From: Oscillospiraceae bacterium
GTDB taxonomy: Bacteria; Bacillota; Clostridia; Oscillospirales; CAG-272
Length of the DNA: 64,000 nucleotides
Assembly: GCA_015064785.1 (NCBI GenBank)
Contig: SVRM01000001.1
Coordinates: 349 to 64,348 of the forward strand
Direction of reading: 5' to 3'
Shown here one piece after another: positions 8,900-18,714 of this stretch (positions are counted from its first letter, which is position 1; each line of letters opens with the position of its first letter). The notes beneath the pieces were generated by a model. The model searched no databases and was not told where the DNA came from. It worked only from the letters and a program-made list of their open reading frames with translations. Both the position numbers and the translations under genes were made by a program.

Positions 8900-10216
8900 A
8901 TGTCTTTTTTCTTACACGGCGTTCATGTTCCACACAGAAAAAACACCGCCGATCAGTCTGCGAAGCGTATTTCCCCGGTGAAAACCGTGACCATTCCGAT
9001 GTCCATGCACATCGGCGCACCGGCAAAGCCAACCGTCCGCGTCGGTGATACAGTACAGGTCGGCACGAAGATTGCAGATGCTGTCGGTGCGGTGTCCTCG
9101 CCGATTCATGCAAGTGTGTCCGGTAAGGTCACAAAAATTTCCGATATTCTGCTGTCCTCCGGCAACACCGTTCCGGCTGTTATCATTGAGTCAGACGGAG
9201 AAATGACACCGGATGCAGATATGCAGGCACCGGTCATTGCAAGCCGAGAGGATCTTCTTGTGGCAATGAAGGACAGCGGTGTGGTCGGTCTTGGCGGTGC
9301 AGGCTTCCCGACCTATGTGAAGTGGAGCGCCGATCCCGCACGCATGGAGGATCTGATCATCAACGGCGCGGAATGTGAGCCGTATATCACCTCCGACTCG
9401 CTGACCATGACGGAGCGTGCGGATGATATGGAGTATGCGCTGCGCGTCATCATGAAGCACTTCCCGCTCAAGCGTGTCATCATCGGCATCGAAAGCAATA
9501 AGCCTGCCGCGATTGCTTCGATGAAGGACATGGCTGCCAGAATCGGTGGCGTGGAGGTTTGTGTGCTTCCGCAGCTGTACCCACAGGGCGGTGAGAAGGT
9601 ATTGGTCTATCACACCACAAAAAAGGTCATTCCCGCCGGCAAGCTGCCCATTGACGTTGGCTGTGTCGTCTGCAACTGTACCACGATTGCTGCCATCGGT
9701 TCTTATCTGCAAACCGGTATGCCGCTGGTCGAAAAGTGCATTACCGTGGACGGCGGTGCGGTTGCGGAACCGCAGAACCTGGTTGTCCCGATCGGCACAT
9801 CGCTTGAGGATGTTTTTGCATTCTGCGGCGGACTGAAAAGCACACCGAGTAAGGTTCTCTACGGCGGTCCGATGATGGGTGTCACTGTCCCAGATCTCAG
9901 CGCACCGGTACTCAAAAACACCAACGCAGTCATTGCGCTGACCGAAAAGGAATCCAGACTGCCCAAAACCTCTGCCTGCATCCGCTGCGGTGCCTGCACC
10001 AATGTCTGTCCGCTGGGACTGGCTCCGGCGCAGATTCTGCTTGCGTACAAGAAAAAGGATGCGGACATGCTGAAGGCGCTGTCGGTGGAATCCTGTATGC
10101 TGTGCGGCTGCTGTAGTTTCAACTGCCCTGCCAACCGTCCGCTCGTACAGACGAATTCCCTGTCCAAACAGCTGCTGAAAGAAACCAAGGCAAAGGAGAC
10201 AACCAAACATGGATAA
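8900..10216 (+). CDS. rnfC: Rnf electron-transport complex subunit C
   Basis: 438 aa. Contains GLGGAGFPT and two 4Fe-4S motifs (CIRCGACTNVCP, CMLCGCCSFNCP). First gene of the canonical CDGEAB order. Confidence 0.95.
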   Translation: MSFFLHGVHVPHRKNTADQSAKRISPVKTVTIPMSMHIGAPAKPTVRVGDTVQVGTKIADAVGAVSSPIHASVSGKVTKISDILLSSGNTVPAVIIESDGEMTPDADMQAPVIASREDLLVAMKDSGVVGLGGAGFPTYVKWSADPARMEDLIINGAECEPYITSDSLTMTERADDMEYALRVIMKHFPLKRVIIGIESNKPAAIASMKDMAARIGGVEVCVLPQLYPQGGEKVLVYHTTKKVIPAGKLPIDVGCVVCNCTTIAAIGSYLQTGMPLVEKCITVDGGAVAEPQNLVVPIGTSLEDVFAFCGGLKSTPSKVLYGGPMMGVTVPDLSAPVLKNTNAVIALTEKESRLPKTSACIRCGACTNVCPLGLAPAQILLAYKKKDADMLKALSVESCMLCGCCSFNCPANRPLVQTNSLSKQLLKETKAKETTKHG

Positions 10217-11138
10217 TATGCTTCATATTTCCGCTTCCCCGCATATTCACAGCGGCAGATCGACCATGTCGATTATGCGCGACGTTCTGATTTCACTTAC
10301 ACCTGCGGCTATCGCCGGAACGGTGATCTTTGGTCTGCGCTCGCTTCTGGTCATTGCGGTCTGTGTCGCATCCTGCGTACTGCTGGAAGCACTGTATAAT
10401 TTCATTACCAAAAAGGATCAGACCGTGGGAGATCTCAGTGCCGCGGTCACGGGTCTTTTGCTCGCGCTGAATCTGCCGTCCACTGTCCCGGTCTGGCAGT
10501 GCGTTGTCGGCTGTGTTTTTGCCATCATCGTGGTCAAGTGCCTGTTCGGCGGTATCGGCTGCAACCTTGTCAATCCTGCCATTACGGCACGTGTGTTTAT
10601 GCTCGTTTCCTTCGGCAGCATGGCTTCCCACGGGATGCCGACCATCGTTGACACCGTCTCCGGCGCAACACCGCTGGAGCAGATGGCAAACGGCGGCACG
10701 GTGCCGCTCACCGATCTCATCCTCGGTATCCGCGGCGGTGCCATCGGCGAGACCTGCGCGATTGCACTTCTGCTCGGCTTTGCATATCTCTTGATCCGCC
10801 GCATCATTTCCTGGCACATTCCGGTCATGTATATCGGCAGTGTGTTTGTCCTCTCCCTGCTCGCGGAAGGCTTTGATGCGGCACGTGCGCTGGCTCTGAC
10901 ACTGTCCGGTGCGGTTCTGATCGGTGCGATCTTTATGGCAACCGACTATGTCACCTCTCCCGCAACCGCGTGGGGCAAGGTCATCTTCGGTCTGGGCGCA
11001 GGTTTACTTACGTTCCTGATCCGATACTACGGTATCTATCCCGAAGGTGTATCCTTTGCCGTTCTGTTTATGAACATTCTGACTCCCTATATTGAGAAGC
11101 TGACCGCACACAAGGTATTCGGAGGAAAAGCAGTATGA
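10209..11138 (+). CDS. rnfD: Rnf complex subunit D (membrane, flavinylated)
   Basis: 309-aa polytopic protein. Carries the flavinylation motif TVSGATPLEQ. Overlaps the rnfC stop. Confidence 0.95.
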   Translation: MDNMLHISASPHIHSGRSTMSIMRDVLISLTPAAIAGTVIFGLRSLLVIAVCVASCVLLEALYNFITKKDQTVGDLSAAVTGLLLALNLPSTVPVWQCVVGCVFAIIVVKCLFGGIGCNLVNPAITARVFMLVSFGSMASHGMPTIVDTVSGATPLEQMANGGTVPLTDLILGIRGGAIGETCAIALLLGFAYLLIRRIISWHIPVMYIGSVFVLSLLAEGFDAARALALTLSGAVLIGAIFMATDYVTSPATAWGKVIFGLGAGLLTFLIRYYGIYPEGVSFAVLFMNILTPYIEKLTAHKVFGGKAV

Positions 11139-12328
11139 AAAAATCCGTAAAAAGCATTGCGGTGCTGGTCAGCATCTGCGCCGTGGTATCCGTGATTCTG
11201 GCGCTGACCAATGCAATCACCGCGCCGATCATCACACAAAACGAAGAAATGGCTGCCAATGCAGCACTTCTGGAGGTTCTGCCCGACGGCGGCAGCTTTG
11301 AGCGAGCAGACACCACCGCATACACACTTCCCGCCACTGTTTCCGATGTGTATCTGGCATCGAGCGGCGGACATGTCGTCCGTCTGACGACCACGGGCTA
11401 CGCATCGGGTATGGTTCTGATGTGCGGCATCAACCCCGACGGCACGGTTGCCGGTACCAAGCTCATCGCGTCCTCTGAAACCCCGTCCATCGGCGGCGCG
11501 GCGGCGGAAAGCTTTGCATCACTCCTGCCCGGCAGAAGCCTTGCTGACATTGATGGTGTTGACACGGTTTCCGGCGCGACCAAGACGACTGCGGCTTACC
11601 GTTCTGCTGTCCGCGATGCACTGAACACCGTTGTCATTCTCGGCGGCGGTTCTGTGGATCTGCGTACCGACGAGGAAATCCTTGCAGATGCTCTGAACGA
11701 GGCACTGGGAGCTGCTAACGGTGCATTTACCAAGCACTTCTTCACAGAAGTTACAGAGGGTGTTGATGCGATCTACTTTGCCGACAACGGCGCGGGCGCT
11801 GTCTGCGTCATCGGTGAACAGTTCATCGCACTGGATGCATCCTACACCGTGATCACTGCGTGTGACAATACGGTCGCCGACACAGCCAAAACAGCGGTCG
11901 ACACCGTCCGTGCATCTGCTGTGACCGCGCTTGATCTTGCGGCATATGAAGGTCTGCCGACGCATCTTGTCAAGGCAGAGAAGACCGCCACCGGCAATTA
12001 TGTCATGGAAATCAAAGCAGCAGGCTACGGCATTACCGGCGGCAATGAGTATCATCCCGCATCCGGTGAATATATCCACATCCTCGTATCTCTCACGGCA
12101 GATGGCAGAATCATCGACTGTATGACCTTGTCCCAGGCAGAAACGGACGGCATCGGCTCTGCATGTGCCGACGAGGCGTTCTACGGTCAGTTCGATGGCA
12201 AGACCGAGGAAACTTACAACAGCATCGATGCCATCAGCGGTGCTACGCTGACAACCGACGGCTATAAGAAGGCGATTCTTCGCGCTTTTGAATGTGTCAG
12301 AATTTTTGAAGGAGGCGATCCGTCATGA
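11135..12328 (+). CDS. rnfG: Rnf complex subunit G, unusually long, with two FMN-binding domains
   Basis: 397 aa with an N-terminal anchor helix. Two SGAT flavinylation motifs: DTVSGATKTT (nt 11570..11581) and DAISGATLTT (nt 12236..12247). ATGA overlap with rnfD. Confidence 0.9.
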   Translation: MKKSVKSIAVLVSICAVVSVILALTNAITAPIITQNEEMAANAALLEVLPDGGSFERADTTAYTLPATVSDVYLASSGGHVVRLTTTGYASGMVLMCGINPDGTVAGTKLIASSETPSIGGAAAESFASLLPGRSLADIDGVDTVSGATKTTAAYRSAVRDALNTVVILGGGSVDLRTDEEILADALNEALGAANGAFTKHFFTEVTEGVDAIYFADNGAGAVCVIGEQFIALDASYTVITACDNTVADTAKTAVDTVRASAVTALDLAAYEGLPTHLVKAEKTATGNYVMEIKAAGYGITGGNEYHPASGEYIHILVSLTADGRIIDCMTLSQAETDGIGSACADEAFYGQFDGKTEETYNSIDAISGATLTTDGYKKAILRAFECVRIFEGGDPS

Positions 12329-13014
12329 AGAAGAACAGCTGTCTTTCCATTGTTCTGAACGGTATCATCAAAGAAAATCCCACGCTGGTGCTGATTCTCG
12401 GTACCTGTCCGACGCTGGCGACCACAACCAATGTCTTCGGTGCATTCGGCATGGGCATTGCAACGCTGATGGTTCTCATCTGCTCTAATGTCCTGATTTC
12501 CCTGCTCCGCCGCGTGATTCCGGACAATGTCCGTATTCCGTGTTATATCGTTATCATCGCCGGCTTTGTTACCGTCGTACAGATGATCATTCACGCATAT
12601 CTTCCGGATCTTTATGACATGCTCGGCGTGTACCTTGCGCTGATCGTCGTCAACTGCATCATCCTCGGCCGCGCGGAAATGTTTGCAAGCAAGAACTCTG
12701 TCGGTCGCTCCGCACTGGACGGTCTTGGCATGGGCATCGGCTTTACCTGTGCGCTCTGCGTCATCGCAACCATCCGTGAGGTTCTGGGCGCTGCCAGCTT
12801 TGCCGGCATGTCCATCCCCTTCCTCGCCGACTTTAAGATTGAATTTTTCGTCAAGGCGCCCGGCGGCATGGTCGTTTACGGTCTGCTGATTGCGCTGGTC
12901 AGTGCGCTCACTGCCGGAAAAGCCCCCAAAAAGAAGGAATTTTCGTGCGCCGGCTGTCCCAGTGCCGGTATGTGCGGCAATGCCTGTACACCCCAAAGAA
13001 AGGAGAATGTTTGA
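12325..13014 (+). CDS. rnfE: Rnf complex subunit E
   Basis: 229-aa polytopic protein. The CPTLATTT and NCIILGRAE blocks are typical of RnfE/NqrD. Confidence 0.93.
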   Translation: MKKNSCLSIVLNGIIKENPTLVLILGTCPTLATTTNVFGAFGMGIATLMVLICSNVLISLLRRVIPDNVRIPCYIVIIAGFVTVVQMIIHAYLPDLYDMLGVYLALIVVNCIILGRAEMFASKNSVGRSALDGLGMGIGFTCALCVIATIREVLGAASFAGMSIPFLADFKIEFFVKAPGGMVVYGLLIALVSALTAGKAPKKKEFSCAGCPSAGMCGNACTPQRKENV

Positions 13015-13041
13015 ACATCAACGTTCAAACGGTGATATCAC

Positions 13042-13641
13042 ATGGAAGGCTTCAAGAATCTCATTGTCATTCTCCTCTCATCCGTTTTAGTCAATAACTA
13101 TGTCCTCAGCCGCTTCCTCGGCATCTGTCCGTTCCTCGGCGTCTCGAAGAAGCTCAATCAGGCAGTCGGTATGGGCGTTTCCGTCACGGCTGTCATGCTG
13201 CTTGCCACCTTTGCAACCTGGCCGATCCAGTACTTCGTGCTGGAGCCGCTGGGACTTGCGTATCTTCAGACCATTGTTTTCATTCTGATCATTGCATCGC
13301 TTGTCCAGATTCTCGAAATCATCTTAAAGCGCTTCTCTCCCGCGCTGCACCAGGGTCTTGGCGTCTATTTACCGCTGATCACGACCAACTGTGCCGTGCT
13401 CGGCGTTGCCATCAACAACATCACCGATCAGTACACCTTCATCGAATCCGTGTTCAGCTCCCTCGGCTGCGGACTCGGCTTTCTGCTGGCAATGGTGCTG
13501 TTCTCCGGTCTGCGCTCCCGCATTGACGAAATGGAGGTTCCGGACAACTTCCGCGGTGTTGCGATCACACTGATTGCCGCATCCTTCATTTCTCTTGCAT
13601 TCATGGGACTTGCCGGAATTGTGGACAATCTCTTTGCTTAA
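13042..13641 (+). CDS. rnfA: Rnf complex subunit A
   Basis: 199-aa polytopic protein. The GICPFLGVS and TTNCAVLGVA blocks are typical of RnfA/NqrE. Confidence 0.93.
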   Translation: MEGFKNLIVILLSSVLVNNYVLSRFLGICPFLGVSKKLNQAVGMGVSVTAVMLLATFATWPIQYFVLEPLGLAYLQTIVFILIIASLVQILEIILKRFSPALHQGLGVYLPLITTNCAVLGVAINNITDQYTFIESVFSSLGCGLGFLLAMVLFSGLRSRIDEMEVPDNFRGVAITLIAASFISLAFMGLAGIVDNLFA

Positions 13642-13653
13642 AGGAGGACAACT

Positions 13654-14481
13654 ATGATCATTGATGTATTAACTGCGCTCGGTGTTGTCGTGGCCATCGG
13701 TCTGCTGTTCGGTATCCTGCTCGCGCTGTTCATTTCCCTGTTCGGCATTGAAGAGGACGAGCGTGTCGTGCAGATCCGCGAAACCCTTCCCGGCATCAAC
13801 TGCGGTGCCTGCGGCTTCAAGGGCTGTGCGGACTATGCAGCGGCAATGGCAAAGGGTGATACCCCGCCGAATCTCTGTATTCCCGGTGCGGAAGATGTTG
13901 CAAAAAAGCTCGGTGAAATTCTCGGCGTTGAGGTCGAGGAGCCGAAGGACATGGTCGCCTTTGTACATTGCAACGGCACCTGCGATGCCGCACCCGAAAA
14001 AGCAAATTATGACGGTATTGCCACCTGCAAGGCGCGTGCGGCCGTATACGGCGGACCCAAGGCGTGTAACTGGGGTTGTCTCGGCTGCGGCGACTGTGCC
14101 GCGGTTTGTGTCGCCGATGCCATCTGTCTTGCGGACGGCATTGCACGCATCAATACCGAACGCTGTGTCGGCTGCGGACTGTGCGTGAAGGAATGCCCGA
14201 AAAAGATCATTTCGATGGTTCCGCAGGAAACTGCGGCAGCCGTCTTTTGCAGCAGCCATGATCGCGGTGCCGATGCCCGTAAGGTGTGCCAAAATGCCTG
14301 CATCGCATGTAAAAAATGCGAGAAGACCTGTCCGCACGGCGCGATTACCGTTGTCAATAACTGCGCGGTCATTGACTACAGCAAGTGTACCGGATGCGGT
14401 GCGTGTACCGAGGTCTGTCCGACGGGATGCCTCAAGCGCGTCAGCTTCCCTGACCTGCCGGAAGACTTCAGCTGGAACTGA
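13654..14481 (+). CDS. rnfB: Rnf complex subunit B (polyferredoxin)
   Basis: 275 aa. N-terminal TM helix, CGACGFKGC block and several CxxCxxCxxxCP ferredoxin motifs. Confidence 0.93.
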   Translation: MIIDVLTALGVVVAIGLLFGILLALFISLFGIEEDERVVQIRETLPGINCGACGFKGCADYAAAMAKGDTPPNLCIPGAEDVAKKLGEILGVEVEEPKDMVAFVHCNGTCDAAPEKANYDGIATCKARAAVYGGPKACNWGCLGCGDCAAVCVADAICLADGIARINTERCVGCGLCVKECPKKIISMVPQETAAAVFCSSHDRGADARKVCQNACIACKKCEKTCPHGAITVVNNCAVIDYSKCTGCGACTEVCPTGCLKRVSFPDLPEDFSWN

Positions 14482-14485
14482 CCGG

Positions 14486-14875
14486 ATGCAGTATTGCAGC
14501 AATCATTCCGGACGGAAATACAGGCATGATCTTCTGTTCATCGGCGGATTGCTTCTGATTATTGCCGCCGCGTCACTTGCACTGTTTTTATTCCGCGTAC
14601 CCGGCGATACTGTCACCGTCACAGTCGACGGACAGGTGTGGGGCGAATTTTCGCTCAGCGAAAACCGCACAGTGGAGATTACCGGTGCTGACGGTTACAA
14701 TCTGCTGGTCATCGCGAATGGGCAGGCGTATGTGTCAGAAGCAAGCTGTCCTGACGGCATCTGCTCATCCCACCGTCCGATCAGCCATGACGGGGAGTCC
14801 ATTATCTGTCTGCCGAACCGGGTTGTCATCTCGGTACAAAGGCAGGATGACCGACAGCCGGACATTATCTCATAA
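14486..14875 (+). CDS. NusG domain II-containing membrane-anchored protein (DUF1312 family)
   Basis: In-frame ATG at 14486, just after the rnfB stop, within listed ORF 14258..14875. TM helix LLFIGGLLLIIAAASLALFLF, then VTVDGQVWGEFSL...ASCPDGICSSHRPISHDGESIICLPNRVVISV, which resembles the NusG_II signature. Confidence 0.8.
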   Translation: MQYCSNHSGRKYRHDLLFIGGLLLIIAAASLALFLFRVPGDTVTVTVDGQVWGEFSLSENRTVEITGADGYNLLVIANGQAYVSEASCPDGICSSHRPISHDGESIICLPNRVVISVQRQDDRQPDIIS

Positions 14876-14893
14876 GGAGTGCATTGCGGAGTC

Positions 14894-15409
14894 ATGAAAC
14901 AGAACGCAGCCAAAAAAATTGCATTTCTCGGACTTGCCGCTTCCCTGTCGCTTCTGCTGTCCTATGTGGAGCTGCTGCTGCCGCCCGTTTATGCCGCAGT
15001 TCCGGGAATTAAGCTCGGTTTGCCGAATATCGTCATTCTCTATCTGCTTTATTCGCTCGGGCTGCGATATGCCGCGCCGGTGTCGCTGATCCGGCTCTGC
15101 ATCTCCTCCCTGCTGTTCGGAAATGCCATGACATTTGCCTACAGTCTTGCAGGTGCACTTCTCAGTATGCTTGTGATGTGTATTCTGAAAAAGACCGGTT
15201 TTCTGTCGGAGATCGGTGTGAGTGTCGCAGGTGGTGTGTCCCACAACCTTGGGCAGATTCTGGTGGCGGTACTTCTTCTCGACACGCCGCAGATCGCCTA
15301 TTATATGATCGTACTGGCAATCACAGGAACCGTTTCCGGAATTTTCATCGGACTTTGCGGCGCATATCTGATCCGTCGGATTCCACCGCGAAAATTGTTT
15401 ATATTTTAA
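14894..15409 (+). CDS. Gx transporter family protein (PF07456, formerly 'heptaprenyl diphosphate synthase component I')
   Basis: Polytopic protein. The PGIKLGLPNIVILYLLY and GVSVAGGVSHNLGQILVAVLLLDT blocks are typical of the family. Start at ATG 14894, or GTG 14879. Confidence 0.8.
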   Translation: MKQNAAKKIAFLGLAASLSLLLSYVELLLPPVYAAVPGIKLGLPNIVILYLLYSLGLRYAAPVSLIRLCISSLLFGNAMTFAYSLAGALLSMLVMCILKKTGFLSEIGVSVAGGVSHNLGQILVAVLLLDTPQIAYYMIVLAITGTVSGIFIGLCGAYLIRRIPPRKLFIF

Positions 15410-15429: not shown

Positions 15430-15459
15430 TTGACATGGGATATGCATTTATGGTATAAT
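15430..15459 (+). promoter_or_regulatory. Candidate sigma-A promoter for the lipoprotein-apbE unit
   Basis: TTGACA (15430..15435), 18 bp, TATAAT (15454..15459) with TGg extended -10. Confidence 0.5.
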
Positions 15460-15500: not shown

Positions 15501-16469
15501 ATGAAGAAACTCATTTCAATTCTGTTGGTATCTCTGATGGTACTGACCGCATTTGCTGTTACCGGATGCAGCGGCGCAGGTGCAGACCTCAAGCTCGGGC
15601 TCGGTGTATACACAACCGTATCGGCGGCTGATGCTACTGAGGATAAAGACGGTCAGGGTCAGGCAACGATTACCGCAGCAGCGGTTCTGGTTGATGCTGA
15701 CGGCAAGATCGTCCGTGCATTCATCGACTGTGCCGACAACAAGGTTGGCTATACGGCAGATGGCAAGGCTGTTGCCGCGCAGAGCTTCACCACCAAGTAC
15801 GAAGCAGGCAAGGAATACAACATGGTCGCGTATGGCGGCGCTGTCAAGGAGTGGTATGAACAGGCAGATGCGTTCTGCGCACTGATCGTCGGCAAGACTG
15901 CGGCAGAGGTCAAGGCGCTTGTCACCGATGCCGGCACCGGTACCGATGATGTCATCAATGCAGGCTGTACCATCGCGATTTCCGAATTCGCATATGCTGT
16001 CGATCGCGCCATTACCAATGCGACTGTCACTGGTGCATCCTCTGCTGACACGCTGAAGCTCGGTATCTCTACCGCGCAGACCACCACCGATGCGACCGAG
16101 GACAAAGCAGGCACCAACAAGGTCGAAACCACCTTCTTTGCGGCTGCTGTCGGTGCTGACGGCAAGGTAACTGCTGCTTCCAGTGACTGCGTTGAGGTAT
16201 CCTTCGGTTTTGATACTGCTGGCAAGTCCACCTTTGATGCATCCAAGGCGATTGCCTCCAAGAAGGAACAGGGCGATACCTACGGCATGAAGGCTTACGG
16301 CGGCGCTGCAAAGGAATGGTATGAACAGGCAGCGGCATTTGATACTGCATGTGTCGGCAAGACTGCAGCCGAGATTTCCGGTTTTGCAGACGGCAATGCG
16401 GATCTTCAGGCAGCCGGCTGTACCATTGCTGTCACTGGTTTTGCCAAGGCAGCAGCCAAGATCGGCTGA
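15501..16469 (+). CDS. Lipoprotein with two tandem homologous domains (FMN_bind-like, non-canonical AGCT motif)
   Basis: 322 aa. Signal peptide plus lipobox (LTAFAVTGC). Internal duplication: aa 30-170 against aa 185-320, sharing LKLG, DATEDK, YGGA.KEWYEQA.AF, VGKTAAE and AGCTIA. AAGGAG RBS upstream. Confidence 0.85.
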   Translation: MKKLISILLVSLMVLTAFAVTGCSGAGADLKLGLGVYTTVSAADATEDKDGQGQATITAAAVLVDADGKIVRAFIDCADNKVGYTADGKAVAAQSFTTKYEAGKEYNMVAYGGAVKEWYEQADAFCALIVGKTAAEVKALVTDAGTGTDDVINAGCTIAISEFAYAVDRAITNATVTGASSADTLKLGISTAQTTTDATEDKAGTNKVETTFFAAAVGADGKVTAASSDCVEVSFGFDTAGKSTFDASKAIASKKEQGDTYGMKAYGGAAKEWYEQAAAFDTACVGKTAAEISGFADGNADLQAAGCTIAVTGFAKAAAKIG

Positions 16470-16482
16470 TAACAAAAAACAA

Positions 16483-16518
16483 GTGGGCTGCGGCACAATC
16501 GTGCAACAGCCCATTTTT
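16483..16518 (+). terminator. Intrinsic terminator/attenuator between the lipoprotein gene and apbE
   Basis: GTGGGCTG...CAGCCCAT stem followed by TTTTT. The apbE RBS (GGAGG) starts 6 nt later. Confidence 0.55.
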
Positions 16519-16532
16519 ACTCCGGAGGCACC

Positions 16533-17591
16533 ATGAAACACACCAAAACCAGCGTTCTTTTGCTGTTGACTGCATTTTTTCTGTCGGTACTCTTTTCATC
16601 CTGTGCATTACGCGAAACAAAATTTACCGCGTATTCGCTGGATTACTTTGACACGGCAACCACAATCACAGGATACGCCGAGGACAGAGCTGCCTTTGAC
16701 AGCATCAGCAATGACATCCTTTCTGTTCTCGGCGAATATCACCGGTTGTATACAATCTATCACCACTATGACGATATGGAAAATCTCTGTACCGTCAATA
16801 CGCTGGAAAACGGCGTTCACCGCACAGTTCCGGTGGACCGACGCATCACGGACATGCTGCTGTACGCAAAGGATATGTATGCGCTGACGGACGGAAGGAT
16901 GAACATTGCAATGGGCAGTGTTCTATCGATCTGGCACGATTATCGCACCGCAGGTCTGGACGAGCCGTCCGCCGCTGCATTGCCGTCGATGGAGGAGCTG
17001 TCACGAGCTGCACTGCATACAAATATCGACGATCTGGTCATCGACGAAGAAGCGGGCACTGTCTTTCTGGCAGACCCGGACATGACGCTGGATGTCGGTG
17101 CGATTGCCAAAGGCTATGCCGTTGAGATGGCAGCACAGATGCTGGAGGAACGCGGTATTTCCGGATATGTCATCAATGTCGGCGGCAATGTGCGCACCGT
17201 CGGAAGCAAGCCGGACGGCTCTCCCTGGCTTGCCGGTATTGAAAATCCGAACCCGACGGACGATGCGCCGTATGTCGGTTATCTGCATCTTACAGGGGAA
17301 TCCATTGTCACAAGCGGAACGTATCAGCGGTACTATATGGTGGATGGCAAAAGCTATCACCACATCATTGATGCGGACACACTCTTCCCGGCTGAAGGAT
17401 ATCTGTCGATCTCGATTGTGTGCAAGAATTCGGCACTGGGAGACGCATTGTCCACGGCGCTGTTCTGCATGACGCCGGAGGACGGTCTGGCACTGGTGGA
17501 ACGTCTTGCAGACGTGGAAGCACTCTGGATTCTGGCAGATGAGTCAAGACAGTATTCCTCCGGTTTTGCAGCGTATCTGACAGAGCCGTGA
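16533..17591 (+). CDS. apbE: FAD:protein FMN transferase (ApbE/Ftp family), lipoprotein
   Basis: 352 aa. Signal peptide plus lipobox (LSVLFSSC). ApbE blocks LDVGAIAKGYAVE, NVGGNV and TSGTYQRY..DGKSYHHIID. Confidence 0.9.
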   Translation: MKHTKTSVLLLLTAFFLSVLFSSCALRETKFTAYSLDYFDTATTITGYAEDRAAFDSISNDILSVLGEYHRLYTIYHHYDDMENLCTVNTLENGVHRTVPVDRRITDMLLYAKDMYALTDGRMNIAMGSVLSIWHDYRTAGLDEPSAAALPSMEELSRAALHTNIDDLVIDEEAGTVFLADPDMTLDVGAIAKGYAVEMAAQMLEERGISGYVINVGGNVRTVGSKPDGSPWLAGIENPNPTDDAPYVGYLHLTGESIVTSGTYQRYYMVDGKSYHHIIDADTLFPAEGYLSISIVCKNSALGDALSTALFCMTPEDGLALVERLADVEALWILADESRQYSSGFAAYLTEP

Positions 17592-17661: not shown

Positions 17662-18714
17662 ATGAACATTCATCAGAACTTTACCGGCGGAAATATCACC
17701 GTCACGAAGATAGACAATGACACTGTTTTTCTGGAACGTCAGATCCGCGATACGGATGGGGACTGGTTCTACTGGGCATTCTGTGCGGAAGGCTTTGCCG
17801 GCCACACAGTGACATTTGTTTTCCCGTCAGAATACCGCGTCGGGCGATACGGTGCTGCGGTCAGCCATGATCTGAAGGCATGGCATTGGAGTGAATCCGG
17901 CAGCGGAGACCGGTTCACCTACACCTTTGCATCGGATGAAACCTGTGTCTATTTTGCGCACGATATGTTATATCATCCGGATCGCTTCTATGCGTTCTGT
18001 GCCGACCGCGGACTGGAGCCGGAGCCATTCTGCAAATCTGAAAAAGGACGTGACCTGCCCTGTGTACGGTTTGGCTCTGGAGATCAGTGGATTTTGCTCA
18101 CCGCGCGGCATCATGCATGTGAATCGACCGGAGGATATGTACTCGAGGGTGTGATTGATACGATGCTGTCAGAACTTCCAGCAGAATATTCCGTGTTGGC
18201 AGTTCCGTTTGTGGATCTGGACGGTGTTTTAGACGGTGATCAGGGGAAAAACCGCCGATCGCACGACCACAACCAGGATTATGATGACACCCCCGTTTAT
18301 GAAGTTACCGCGGCTCTGAAGGCATTCAGCCGTGAACATGCCCTCAGCTGTACTTTTGATTTCCATTCGCCGTGGCACATCGGTCCGCAGAACGATCATA
18401 TCTTCTTCAGCCACAGCACCGAAGCCATGAAGCCGCACGCCGATCGCTTCGGAGAACGACTGGCAGCGGATACCGCACACCTGCCTCTGCGCTATACCGG
18501 AAACTGGGATGTTGGTCCGAATGAGCAATGGAACAACGAAAACAGCATCAACTCCAAAAACTATTATTCCCGTCTGCCCGGTGTCCGACTGACTGTCACC
18601 ATAGAAACGCCGTATTTCGGTGTGGATGACGGAAAAATTTCGCAGGATGCCATGCTGATCTTCGGCCGAACCTGCGGAAACAGCATTGCCGCTCATATCC
18701 GCGATGGTCTTTGA
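17662..18714 (+). CDS. M14-family metallocarboxypeptidase-like protein (cytosolic carboxypeptidase-like, with N-terminal beta-sandwich)
   Basis: 350 aa. N-terminal FTGGNITV resembles the FESGNL-type N-domain. ARHHACESTG supplies a candidate HxxE zinc motif. No signal peptide. Confidence 0.5.
   Translation: MNIHQNFTGGNITVTKIDNDTVFLERQIRDTDGDWFYWAFCAEGFAGHTVTFVFPSEYRVGRYGAAVSHDLKAWHWSESGSGDRFTYTFASDETCVYFAHDMLYHPDRFYAFCADRGLEPEPFCKSEKGRDLPCVRFGSGDQWILLTARHHACESTGGYVLEGVIDTMLSELPAEYSVLAVPFVDLDGVLDGDQGKNRRSHDHNQDYDDTPVYEVTAALKAFSREHALSCTFDFHSPWHIGPQNDHIFFSHSTEAMKPHADRFGERLAADTAHLPLRYTGNWDVGPNEQWNNENSINSKNYYSRLPGVRLTVTIETPYFGVDDGKISQDAMLIFGRTCGNSIAAHIRDGL

What the first reader, a model, noticed from the sequence alone, without database searches (positions are those of the whole stretch)
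15501..16469. Tandem-domain lipoprotein next to ApbE with a conserved AGCT motif in place of the canonical SGAT flavinylation site
SEEN: after the lipobox (VTGC), residues about 30-170 and 185-320 are an internal duplication. Shared blocks are LKLG, DATEDK, YGGA(V/A)KEWYEQA(D/A)AF and VGKTAAE. Each domain ends in DDVINAGCTIAISEFAYAV (GCT at nt 15963..15971) or NADLQAAGCTIAVTGFAKAA (GCT at nt 16416..16424). ESTABLISHED: FMN_bind domains end in D-x-x-[ST]-G-A-[ST]-x-[ST], with the last Thr of SGAT carrying FMN. Here Ser becomes Ala, Ala becomes Cys, and the upstream Asp sits one position further away. The spacing and the following hydrophobic/small pattern still look FMN_bind-like. INFERENCE: this is either a divergent ApbE substrate or a domain using the conserved Cys (thioether/cysteinyl-linked or metal-bound cofactor). 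Conservation of the Cys in both repeats argues that it matters.
Basis: partly seen in the sequence, partly recalled or inferred. Interest (0 to 1): 0.65.

Follow-up and report, generated by a model that had tools for sequence, protein, structure and literature searches.

The report
Divergent two-flavin lipoprotein beside ApbE
This gene encodes a surface-anchored protein built from two copies of a divergent flavin-binding domain; it is most likely loaded with two flavins by the neighbouring enzyme ApbE to carry electrons outside the cell, and the unusual cysteine marks one branch of the family and is not needed by the family as a whole.

Summary
Window 15501-16469 (+) encodes a 322-aa lipoprotein with two homologous domains (44% identity, E 3e-31), each carrying A-G-C-T before its last helix.

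The protein matches no Pfam or NCBIfam model. A profile of the family does hit PDB 2KZX, a Pfam FMN_bind member (E 5e-8), and places AGCT on that protein's SGAT. A profile-profile comparison with RnfG FMN_bind domains gives the same register, though weakly.

The family is very large: about 1,700 clusters at 50% identity, all Bacillota where named, all annotated as hypothetical. It most likely corresponds to the "FMN-bind2" structural subtype sketched computationally in 2024.

Across the family the final Thr/Ser is essentially invariant. The Cys is specific to one clade; another large branch has D-x-x-S-S-V-T.

The gene sits next to apbE in 78 of 80 related species and in 5 of 5 distant loci. 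It usually also lies with eetA/eetB (FAD export) and rnf. In two distant loci it occupies the PplA position of a Listeria-type electron-export cluster.

Best reading: an ApbE substrate flavinylated on Thr157 and Thr308 that acts as an extracytosolic electron carrier. The cysteine-cofactor idea is not supported. No flavin has been demonstrated. I rate this a new variant of a known kind, of moderate interest.

The parts
15501..16469 (+). Tandem-domain lipoprotein (322 aa). Signal peptide and lipobox occupy residues 1-23. Domain 1 is residues 28-176 and domain 2 is residues 181-322. It is a divergent FMN_bind (FMN-bind2-type) protein.
   Evidence: ORF and translation; internal duplication E 3e-31; AF2 model with pLDDT 90.7 and pTM 0.86; profile hit to FMN_bind member 2KZX
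15960..15971 (+). Motif A154-G155-C156-T157 of domain 1. Thr157 is the predicted FMN phosphoester site.
   Evidence: Aligned on SGAT of 2KZX and of RnfG. Thr/Ser occupies 96% of all representative domains, which is every domain not gapped at this column, and about 100% in a second branch.
16413..16424 (+). Motif A305-G306-C307-T308 of domain 2. Thr308 is the predicted FMN phosphoester site.
   Evidence: Same column as the domain 1 motif in the domain alignment. The Thr is invariant in the full-length alignment of distant members.
15430..15459 (+). Consensus sigma-70-type promoter (TTGACA, 18-nt spacer, TG, TATAAT) directly upstream of the lipoprotein gene
   Evidence: 12 of 12 hexamer matches with an extended -10 TG. 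A match of at least 10/12 lies upstream of the orthologue in 78 of 80 related loci.
16481..16520 (+). Intrinsic-terminator-like hairpin followed by a U-run, between the lipoprotein gene and apbE
   Evidence: RNA fold -23.6 kcal/mol, z -5.3, 0 of 200 shuffles as good. A comparable hairpin plus T-run is present in 77 of 80 related loci. The simple scan missed it because the structure has an interior loop and a second inner stem.
16533..17591 (+). ApbE-family FAD:protein FMN transferase (352 aa) with its own lipoprotein-type signal (LFSSC). It is the proposed modifying enzyme.
   Evidence: Pfam PF02424 E 6.3e-69; adjacent to the target in 78 of 80 loci and in distant loci
14879..15409 (+). EetB homologue (Pfam PF07456, Hpre_diP_synt_I). 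EetB is the ECF-S-like FAD-binding subunit of the FAD exporter that supplies extracytosolic ApbE.
   Evidence: Pfam E 5.5e-36; function of PF07456/EetB from PMC9973259
14486..14875 (+). Probable EetA-like small membrane protein with a NusG_II domain. The likely start is Met77 of the longer ORF 14258-14875, 5 nt after the rnfB stop.
   Evidence: Pfam PF07009 E 5e-28. A NusG_II gene sits next to the PF07456 gene in the related loci, and eetA/eetB synteny is reported in PMC9973259. The paper does not give EetA's Pfam family, so equating this gene with eetA is my inference.
8900..14481 (+). rnfCDGEAB operon. RnfC 8900-10216; RnfD 10209-11138 (one SGAT); RnfG 11135-12328 (two FMN_bind domains, two SGAT); RnfE 12325-13014; RnfA 13042-13641; RnfB 13654-14481. 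It is the proposed source of electrons.
   Evidence: Pfam hits; SGAT positions

Best explanation
The gene encodes an extracytosolic lipoprotein anchored by Cys23. It is made of two divergent FMN-binding domains of the extended FMN-bind2 type, which pack into one pseudo-symmetric unit.

Proposed sequence of events:
1. The EetB-type exporter encoded just upstream brings FAD across the membrane.
2. The ApbE lipoprotein encoded just downstream transfers the FMN moiety of FAD onto the hydroxyl of Thr157 and Thr308, the last residue of each A-G-C-T. This is the same phosphoester chemistry as on the SGAT sites of RnfD and RnfG in the same operon.
3. The resulting two-flavin protein works as a mobile or peripheral electron carrier on the outer face of the membrane. 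It most likely exchanges electrons with the doubly flavinylated RnfG of the adjacent Rnf complex and passes them to external acceptors. This makes it a functional analogue of Listeria PplA / Enterococcus Cad.

The Cys in AGCT is a clade-specific replacement of the canonical Ala (Val in the sister branch). It probably packs under the flavin/phosphate site and does not form a bond.

What is shown: the duplication, the homology to FMN_bind, the invariance of the Thr, the variability of the Cys, and the gene neighbourhood.

What is inferred: flavinylation itself, the identity of the modified residues, the electron-carrier role, and the partnership with Rnf.
For: Homology to FMN_bind:
- Profiles of the whole protein and of the single domain hit only PDB 2KZX with significance (E 4.8e-8 and 6.3e-7). 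They align Y-x-M, EW-x-EQ and AGCT/SGAT.
- The aligned 2KZX segment scores above Pfam's FMN_bind gathering cut-off (25.8 against 22 bits). 2KZX is listed as a PF04205 member in PMC4348036.
- hhalign against an RnfG FMN_bind profile aligns AGCT on SGAT (probability 57%, E 1e-4).
- AF2 gives three antiparallel strands followed by helices, with the motif just before the last helix. Flavinylated FMN_bind crystal structures have the same order of elements (PMC10339131).

Conservation of the site:
- Thr 91% plus Ser 5% (the rest gaps) in 328 representative domains.
- Thr 99% in 240 domains of a second branch.
- Thr invariant in both domains of nine members sharing only 32-41% identity with the reference sequence.
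- About half of the second-branch domains have D-x-x-S-S-V-T with Asp at the canonical -3 position. One member has a canonical D-L-A-S-G-A-T (P0178).

Tolerance of ApbE: Ala-to-Val and Gly-to-Ala each keep about 50% flavinylation, and Asp-to-Ala has a minor effect (review PMC12052999).

Gene context:
- Target and apbE are adjacent in 78 of 80 species.
- The same holds in distant members with other motif variants.
- Two distant members sit in Ndh2 / polyprenyl synthase / UbiA / X / ApbE / EetB / NusG_II-gene clusters. No other gene in those clusters carries a recorded FMN_bind hit, so X is the only evident ApbE substrate there.
- EetB/PF07456 is an experimentally supported FAD-export subunit that colocalises with rnf in 572 Clostridia genomes.

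Domain architecture: some members fuse a canonical Pfam FMN_bind domain in front of the tandem unit (P0225, P0251). Even copy numbers (2, 4, 6) and the confident two-domain model (pTM 0.86) match the published FMN-bind2 description.
Against: - No flavin has been observed on this protein or, as far as I could find, on any member of this family.
- Neither the window protein nor the Muricomes homologue P0396 matches Pfam FMN_bind. The window protein has no NCBIfam match either.
- Foldseek of the whole model and of the single-domain model found no significant PDB match, and no FMN_bind structure among the top 50.
- hhalign support is only moderate (57%).
- Three of the motif positions differ from the canonical site (Ser to Ala, Ala to Cys, Asp shifted by one). 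Combined substitutions have not been tested with any ApbE.
- apbE adjacency in the window could be explained by RnfD/RnfG alone. The argument that the target is itself a substrate rests on distant loci.
- The link to Rnf as electron donor is based on synteny only.
Confidence: 0.62

Rival explanations
1. Degenerate FMN_bind relative that is no longer covalently modified. It would bind FAD, FMN or riboflavin non-covalently and act as a flavin chaperone or buffer between the EetB exporter and ApbE (handing FAD to ApbE for RnfD/RnfG), or as a flavin-scavenging binding protein.
For: The gene lies exactly between eetB and apbE. The motif departs from the canonical site at three positions, and Pfam does not recognise the domain. 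The strong dedicated promoter and terminator suggest an abundant, stoichiometric protein and not a trace component. Relationships between non-covalent and covalent flavoproteins are documented (PMC11334425).
Against: A protein that had lost flavinylation has no reason to keep the acceptor Thr/Ser in essentially every domain across sequences only about 30-40% identical overall. Family members occupy the PplA slot of EET clusters, where a flavinylated carrier is expected. Single substitutions like those seen here still allow flavinylation.
Confidence: 0.2
2. The conserved Cys is the functional centre. It would form a cysteinyl-flavin link (8-alpha-S or 6-S, possibly in addition to the Thr phosphoester), a flavin-C4a adduct, a metal site, or a redox-active thiol.
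For: Cys is invariant in both repeats throughout the close clade and is the commonest residue at this position in one representative set (74%). It lies directly next to the predicted flavin attachment residue.
Against: Cys is replaced by Val in 15% of one set and 94% of a second large branch, and also by Ala, Thr, Ile and Met, while the other conserved residues are unchanged. The substitutes are aliphatic or small, as expected for a packing position. Cys covaries with the preceding residue (G-C against S-V), which suggests a steric coupling. No second Cys covaries with it, which argues against a conserved disulfide or a multi-Cys metal site.
Confidence: 0.08
3. An unrelated surface lipoprotein (for example a solute-binding or structural/immunogenic protein) whose resemblance to FMN_bind is coincidental and whose position next to apbE is only inherited synteny.
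For: No Pfam hit. Foldseek finds nothing significant. Most of the 80 loci come from related gut Clostridia, so their synteny is partly shared ancestry.
Against: The profile hit to 2KZX has E 5e-8 over about 70 residues including the site. The apbE/eetB association persists in members at 30-40% identity and in differently organised clusters. Fusions with canonical FMN_bind domains exist.
Confidence: 0.05

Closest known systems
FMN-bind2 structural subtype of the FMN-binding domain (Huang, Meheust, Barquera and Light, mSystems 2024, PMC11334425; example NTW96865.1, Erysipelotrichaceae bacterium)
   Same: The domain is about 145-160 aa and longer than the classic domain, with extended beta1-beta3 strands. 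It occurs in even numbers (2, 4, 6). Two domains are predicted to pack by their sheet faces into one pseudo-symmetric two-site unit. No InterPro or Pfam entry covers it. It is found in Bacillota.
   Different: I could not obtain the published example sequence, so identity of the two families is inferred from the description. The paper defines the ApbE site as [S/T]GA[S/T]-like and, in the text I read, does not mention the AGCT or SSVT variants, the eetB/apbE/rnf context of this family, or its size. That paper presents a structural model of this subtype, not a flavin measurement.
PplA (Listeria monocytogenes) / Cad, the cAD1 pheromone-precursor lipoprotein (Enterococcus faecalis)
   Same: Both are lipoproteins with two homologous FMN-binding domains, encoded beside an ApbE-type transferase and eetA/eetB. 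Distant members of the present family sit in the same slot of Ndh2 / DmkB-like / DmkA-like clusters. PplA is an ApbE (FmnB) substrate and the extracellular electron carrier of flavin-based EET (PMC9973259).
   Different: PplA and Cad carry canonical SGAT/TGAT sites and model on 3O6U, the short FMN-bind1 type (PMC7074142). That paper reports cad-apbE pairs only in genomes lacking rnf, whereas the window gene is embedded in an rnf operon. Sequence similarity to PplA/Cad was not tested, because I had no sequence.
Pfam FMN_bind (PF04205): NqrC, RnfG, Tp0171, 3O6U, 2KZX
   Same: Remote sequence homology through 2KZX. The order of secondary-structure elements matches (three strands, then helices, with the site before the last helix). 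Both are extracytosolic and ApbE-associated.
   Different: The protein scores below all Pfam thresholds. About 50-60 extra residues extend the sheet and add short helices. The site is A-G-C-T with the acidic residue one position further upstream, in place of D-x-x-[ST]-G-A-[ST].

Membership tests
Pfam FMN_bind (PF04205) | Match to the Pfam HMM at or above the gathering score | tested here: not met
   No Pfam family at E <= 1 for the window protein and none at E <= 0.001 for the Muricomes homologue P0396
Pfam FMN_bind (PF04205) | Detectable homology to an accepted member | tested here: met
   The family profile hits 2KZX at E 4.8e-8 and the domain profile at 6.3e-7. The aligned 2KZX segment passes the FMN_bind cut-off and 2KZX is listed in PF04205. 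hhalign against RnfG domains gives probability 57%, E 1e-4.
Pfam FMN_bind (PF04205) | Shared fold with solved FMN_bind structures | tested here: inconclusive
ApbE substrates | Site D-x-x-[S/T]-G-A-[S/T] with the terminal hydroxyl residue as acceptor | tested here: inconclusive
   Gly and the terminal Thr are kept. Ser is replaced by Ala, Ala by Cys, and the acidic residue sits at -4 instead of -3. Single changes of this kind are tolerated by ApbE, but the combination is untested.
ApbE substrates | Covalently bound FMN on the acceptor residue | not testable with these tools
   Needs expression with ApbE, in-gel fluorescence and mass spectrometry
ApbE substrates | Extracytosolic location and co-occurrence with an extracytosolic ApbE | tested here: met
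   The target has a lipobox (VTGC) and ApbE has one too (LFSSC). The genes are adjacent in 78 of 80 loci and in 5 distant loci.
FMN-bind2 subtype (PMC11334425) | Domain of about 160 aa with an extended sheet, in even copy numbers, with paired domains forming one unit | tested here: met
   Domains are 145-150 aa with 13-15-residue strands. The two-domain model has pTM 0.86. Copy numbers are mostly 2, then 4 and 6.
FMN-bind2 subtype (PMC11334425) | Sequence similarity to the published example NTW96865.1 | not tested
   The sequence is not in the held supplement. No Erysipelotrichaceae entry appeared among the named hits.
PplA/Cad lipoproteins of flavin-based EET | Two-domain FMN-binding lipoprotein encoded with ndh2, dmkA, dmkB, eetA, eetB and fmnB | tested here: not met
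   In the window the partners are rnfCDGEAB, an eetA-like gene, eetB and apbE, with no ndh2 or dmk genes. Distant family members P0255 and P0261 do sit in such clusters.
PplA/Cad lipoproteins of flavin-based EET | Canonical SGAT/TGAT sites | tested here: not met
   AGCT in both domains. Cad and PplA have SGAT/TGAT.

The most novel reading that the evidence does not exclude
In the gut Oscillospirales-type clade, the Cys next to the acceptor Thr is chemically active. It might give a doubly tethered flavin (Thr phosphoester plus cysteinyl link), or a thiol that gates or tunes the flavin. In that case the cognate ApbE would have co-evolved to recognise A-G-C-T. This would be a new type of covalent flavin site and an ApbE specificity class outside [S/T]GA[S/T].
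Probability: 0.08. Interest if true: 0.85.

Novelty: new variant of a known kind. Interest (0 to 1): 0.45.

Why it matters
ApbE substrates are usually found through Pfam FMN_bind or through the [S/T]GA[S/T] motif. This family is invisible to both, yet it is very large: about 1,700 clusters at 50% identity, and more than 3,000 clusters at 90% identity in each of two searches. It is common in gut and rumen Clostridia and sits next to apbE.

If Thr157 and Thr308 are flavinylated, three things follow:
- The working definition of the ApbE site widens to about [AST]-[GST]-[ACV]-[ST].
- Surveys of extracytosolic flavoproteins have missed a major class.
- Many Rnf-containing gut anaerobes would have a PplA-like outlet for electrons at the cell surface, which bears on how they dispose of reducing power.

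It would also give protein engineers new flavin-tag sequences. The core idea, an ApbE-flavinylated FMN-binding lipoprotein, is established biology, so this extends it and does not overturn it.

Tried and rejected
- Pfam and NCBIfam scans of the target returned nothing.
- Foldseek of the full-length AF2 model against the PDB gave only spurious MHC-like or lipoprotein hits with TM about 0.1.
- Foldseek of the single-domain model (pLDDT 95.5) also gave no significant hit.
- I tried to recover the published FMN-bind2 example (NTW96865.1) from the paper's supplement, from cluster look-ups and from a second homologue search. It was not found.
- The primary mutagenesis paper of Bertsova et al. 2019 is not held. 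I relied on the 2025 review's summary of it.
- I considered a disulfide or metal site involving the motif Cys and rejected it. Other Cys columns occur in only 13-43% of domains, and none covaries strictly with the motif Cys.
- The 341-aa ORF on the minus strand (15516-16541) that overlaps the gene is a shadow ORF of a GC-rich coding region. All homologues and the synteny are on the plus strand.
- The simple terminator scan missed the hairpin after the gene. Folding found it.

Full report
**1. The observation**

The ORF at 15501-16469 (+) encodes a 322-aa protein with a lipoprotein signal (…AFAVTGC, Cys23). Residues 28-176 and 181-322 align at 44% identity with E 3e-31, so the internal duplication is real. 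The two A-G-C-T motifs lie at nt 15960-15971 and 16413-16424. The gene immediately downstream (16533-17591) is an ApbE-family FMN transferase (Pfam E 6e-69), and it also has a lipoprotein-type signal.

**2. What the domain is**

The protein matches nothing in Pfam or NCBIfam. It is nevertheless not an orphan.
- 3,223 clusters at 90% identity match it.
- A profile search of 1.84 billion representatives finds 1,677 clusters at 50% identity.
- All named members are called hypothetical.

A profile of 25 homologues hits exactly one solved structure with significance: 2KZX from Clostridium thermocellum (E 4.8e-8). The alignment covers Y-x-M, EW-x-EQ and the site, with AGCT opposite SGAT and a one-residue gap before it. 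A profile of single domains repeats this result (E 6.3e-7). The aligned part of 2KZX passes Pfam's FMN_bind threshold, and 2KZX is listed among PF04205 structures in PMC4348036. hhalign against a profile of RnfG FMN_bind domains also puts AGCT on SGAT, with moderate support (probability 57%, E 1e-4).

AlphaFold2 models are confident: pLDDT 90.7 and pTM 0.86 for the whole protein, and 95.5 for one domain. Each domain has three long antiparallel strands followed by helices, with the motif just before the last helix. Flavinylated FMN_bind crystal structures have the same order of elements (PMC10339131).

Four features fit the "FMN-bind2" subtype described from models by Huang et al. 2024: the size, the extended sheet, the even copy numbers (2, 4, 6) and the confident pairing of the two domains. 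That paper's example has no InterPro entry. I could not obtain the example sequence, so this identification is probable and not proven.

**3. Which residues matter**

In 328 domains from the 50%-identity representatives, the four motif positions are as follows.

| Position | Residues |
|---|---|
| 1 | A 78%, S 13%, T 4% |
| 2 | G 65%, S 19%, T 5% |
| 3 | C 74%, V 15%, A 4% |
| 4 | T 91%, S 5% (the rest gaps) |

A second search seeded with distant members reached a different large branch, which includes Sedimentibacter, Tissierellia and the cultured Muricomes intestini. There the motif is SSVT in 165 of 240 domains. Position 3 is Val in 94% and position 4 is Thr in 99%. Asp sits at the canonical -3 position in 136 of 240 domains, giving D-x-x-S-S-V-T. 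One member has a fully canonical D-L-A-S-G-A-T.

In a full-length alignment of nine members sharing 32-41% identity with the reference sequence, the motif Thr is one of 27 invariant columns, and it is invariant in both domains. The Cys is not invariant.

Cys goes with a preceding Gly and Val goes with a preceding Ser. No other Cys column covaries strictly with the motif Cys.

The acceptor hydroxyl is therefore under family-wide selection. The Cys is one of two alternative packing solutions (G-C or S-V) and is fixed only in the clade to which the window belongs.

**4. Gene context**

The window carries the following genes in order.
- rnfC, then rnfD (one SGAT), then rnfG (two FMN_bind domains, two SGAT), then rnfE, rnfA and rnfB.
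- A NusG_II gene, which I take to be eetA-like.
- A PF07456 gene.
- The target.
- apbE.

PF07456 is EetB, the FAD-binding ECF-S-like subunit required for FAD export and PplA flavinylation in Listeria. According to PMC9973259 it colocalises with eetA in 3,328 genomes, with apbE in 2,169 genomes, and with rnf in 572 Clostridia genomes.

Among the 80 closest species, all gut or rumen Clostridia MAGs, the target is followed by apbE in 78, and about 70 share the whole arrangement. In three loci the target-apbE pair lies upstream of rnf, so the pair moves as a unit.

Distant members keep the association.
- P0218 (SGCT) lies next to apbE and rnfC.
- P0178 (SGAT/ASVT) lies in a NusG_II gene-eetB-X-apbE-rnfCDG cluster.
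- P0223 lies in a NusG_II gene-eetB-X-apbE cluster with no rnf nearby.
- P0255 and P0261 lie in Ndh2-type / polyprenyl synthase / UbiA / X / ApbE / EetB / NusG_II-gene clusters.

The last arrangement is that of the Listeria flavin-based electron-export locus, with X in the place of PplA. No other gene in those two clusters has a recorded FMN_bind hit. This is the strongest argument that the family is itself an ApbE substrate and not a bystander of RnfD/RnfG maturation.

**5. Expression signals**

A perfect TTGACA-18-TG-TATAAT promoter lies at 15430-15459. A strong hairpin with a U-run lies at 16481-16520 (-23.6 kcal/mol, z -5.3). Together they bracket the gene. Comparable signals occur in 78 and 77 of the 80 related loci. 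This suggests a separately and strongly transcribed unit inside the cluster, as expected for a stoichiometric carrier next to a catalytic ApbE.

In one gut metatranscriptome, near-identical contigs cover only the target gene within the 4.2-kb region examined. This is weak evidence, because contigs show presence only.

**6. Mechanism proposed**

FAD is exported by the EetB system. ApbE transfers FMN to Thr157 and Thr308. The two-flavin lipoprotein then shuttles electrons at the outer membrane face, probably between the doubly flavinylated RnfG and external acceptors. It would be a PplA analogue built from FMN-bind2 domains.

ApbE tolerates Ala-to-Val and Gly-to-Ala (about 50% flavinylation each) and Asp-to-Ala (minor effect). 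An A-G-C-T or S-S-V-T site is therefore plausible, but no combination of these changes has been tested.

My confidence by step is roughly as follows.
- Homology to FMN_bind: about 0.9.
- Covalent flavinylation on the Thr: about 0.7.
- Electron-carrier role coupled to Rnf: about 0.5.

**7. Rivals**

- A non-covalent flavin chaperone or buffer between EetB and ApbE (0.2). It fits the position and the likely abundance but does not explain the invariant Thr.
- Cysteine-based chemistry (0.08). The Val, Ala and Thr substitutions across the family speak against it.
- Coincidental resemblance (0.05). The profile statistics, the fusions with canonical FMN_bind domains (P0225, P0251) and the conserved context in distant loci speak against it.

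**8. Novelty and verdict**

The kind of system is known: an ApbE-flavinylated FMN-binding lipoprotein (PplA, Cad, Tp0171). The extended domain type was sketched in 2024.

I found the following described nowhere in the papers I read.
- The non-canonical site of this family (AGCT or SSVT).
- The family's size.
- Its invisibility to Pfam and to motif searches.
- Its systematic placement between eetB and apbE in rnf operons, or in PplA's place.

I rate it a new variant of a known kind, of moderate interest. The "cysteine cofactor" alternative is unlikely but remains the most novel possibility not excluded. One expression experiment with mass spectrometry would decide it.

Noticed in passing
window 11135-12328 (+): RnfG is 397 aa and carries two FMN_bind domains, each with a canonical SGAT (residues 146-149 and 368-371). 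It belongs to the multi-flavinylated RnfG class, which has been proposed to branch electrons to outside acceptors. With RnfD (SGAT at 151) and the target, the cluster holds five predicted flavinylation sites.
   Followed up: partly
L085 7001-8008 and L086 6227-7249: Distant family members (motifs SSMT/SSCT and ASVT/AEVT) sit in Ndh2-type / polyprenyl synthase / UbiA / X / ApbE / EetB / NusG_II-gene clusters. This is the Listeria-type flavin-based electron-export locus with this family in place of PplA.
   Followed up: partly
P0123 (991 aa), P0130 (983 aa), P0212 (839 aa), P0303 (594 aa): Some relatives are very long, with four to six copies of the domain (for example six ASVT domains). These are possible multi-flavin wires built from FMN-bind2 units.
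   Followed up: no
P0225 (463 aa), P0251 (472 aa): These members have a canonical Pfam FMN_bind domain (E 3e-15 and 5e-13) fused in front of the tandem divergent unit. One polypeptide therefore combines both domain subtypes.
   Followed up: no
window 15430-15459 and 16481-16520 (+): A perfect consensus promoter and a strong terminator hairpin isolate the lipoprotein gene inside the rnf-eet-apbE cluster. Both are conserved in 77-78 of 80 related loci. apbE must therefore rely on read-through or on a promoter of its own.
   Followed up: partly
window 15712-16073: In one gut metatranscriptome (run X15), near-identical contigs cover part of the target gene but not the eetA-like gene, eetB or apbE beside it. 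This hints at higher transcript abundance.
   Followed up: partly
window 15516-16541 (-): A 341-aa ORF on the opposite strand overlaps the whole gene. It looks like a shadow ORF of a GC-rich coding region and has no support from homologues or synteny.
   Followed up: partly
window 14258-14875 (+): The mechanical ORF for the NusG_II (eetA-like) protein starts inside rnfB. The likely true start is the Met at 14486, 5 nt after the rnfB stop, giving 129 aa.
   Followed up: partly
window 17662-18714 (+): The 350-aa protein after apbE has only a sub-threshold match to the N-terminal domain of cytosolic carboxypeptidases (M14 family, E 9e-4, below the cut-off). Its function is unclear.
   Followed up: no
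P0396 (Muricomes intestini, 354 aa): This homologue from a cultured species has the SSVT motif in both domains. One source names it 'Major membrane immun...' (name cut off in the output). From memory, that label derives from the Treponema pallidum FMN-binding lipoprotein Tp0171. The organism could serve for experiments.
   Followed up: partly
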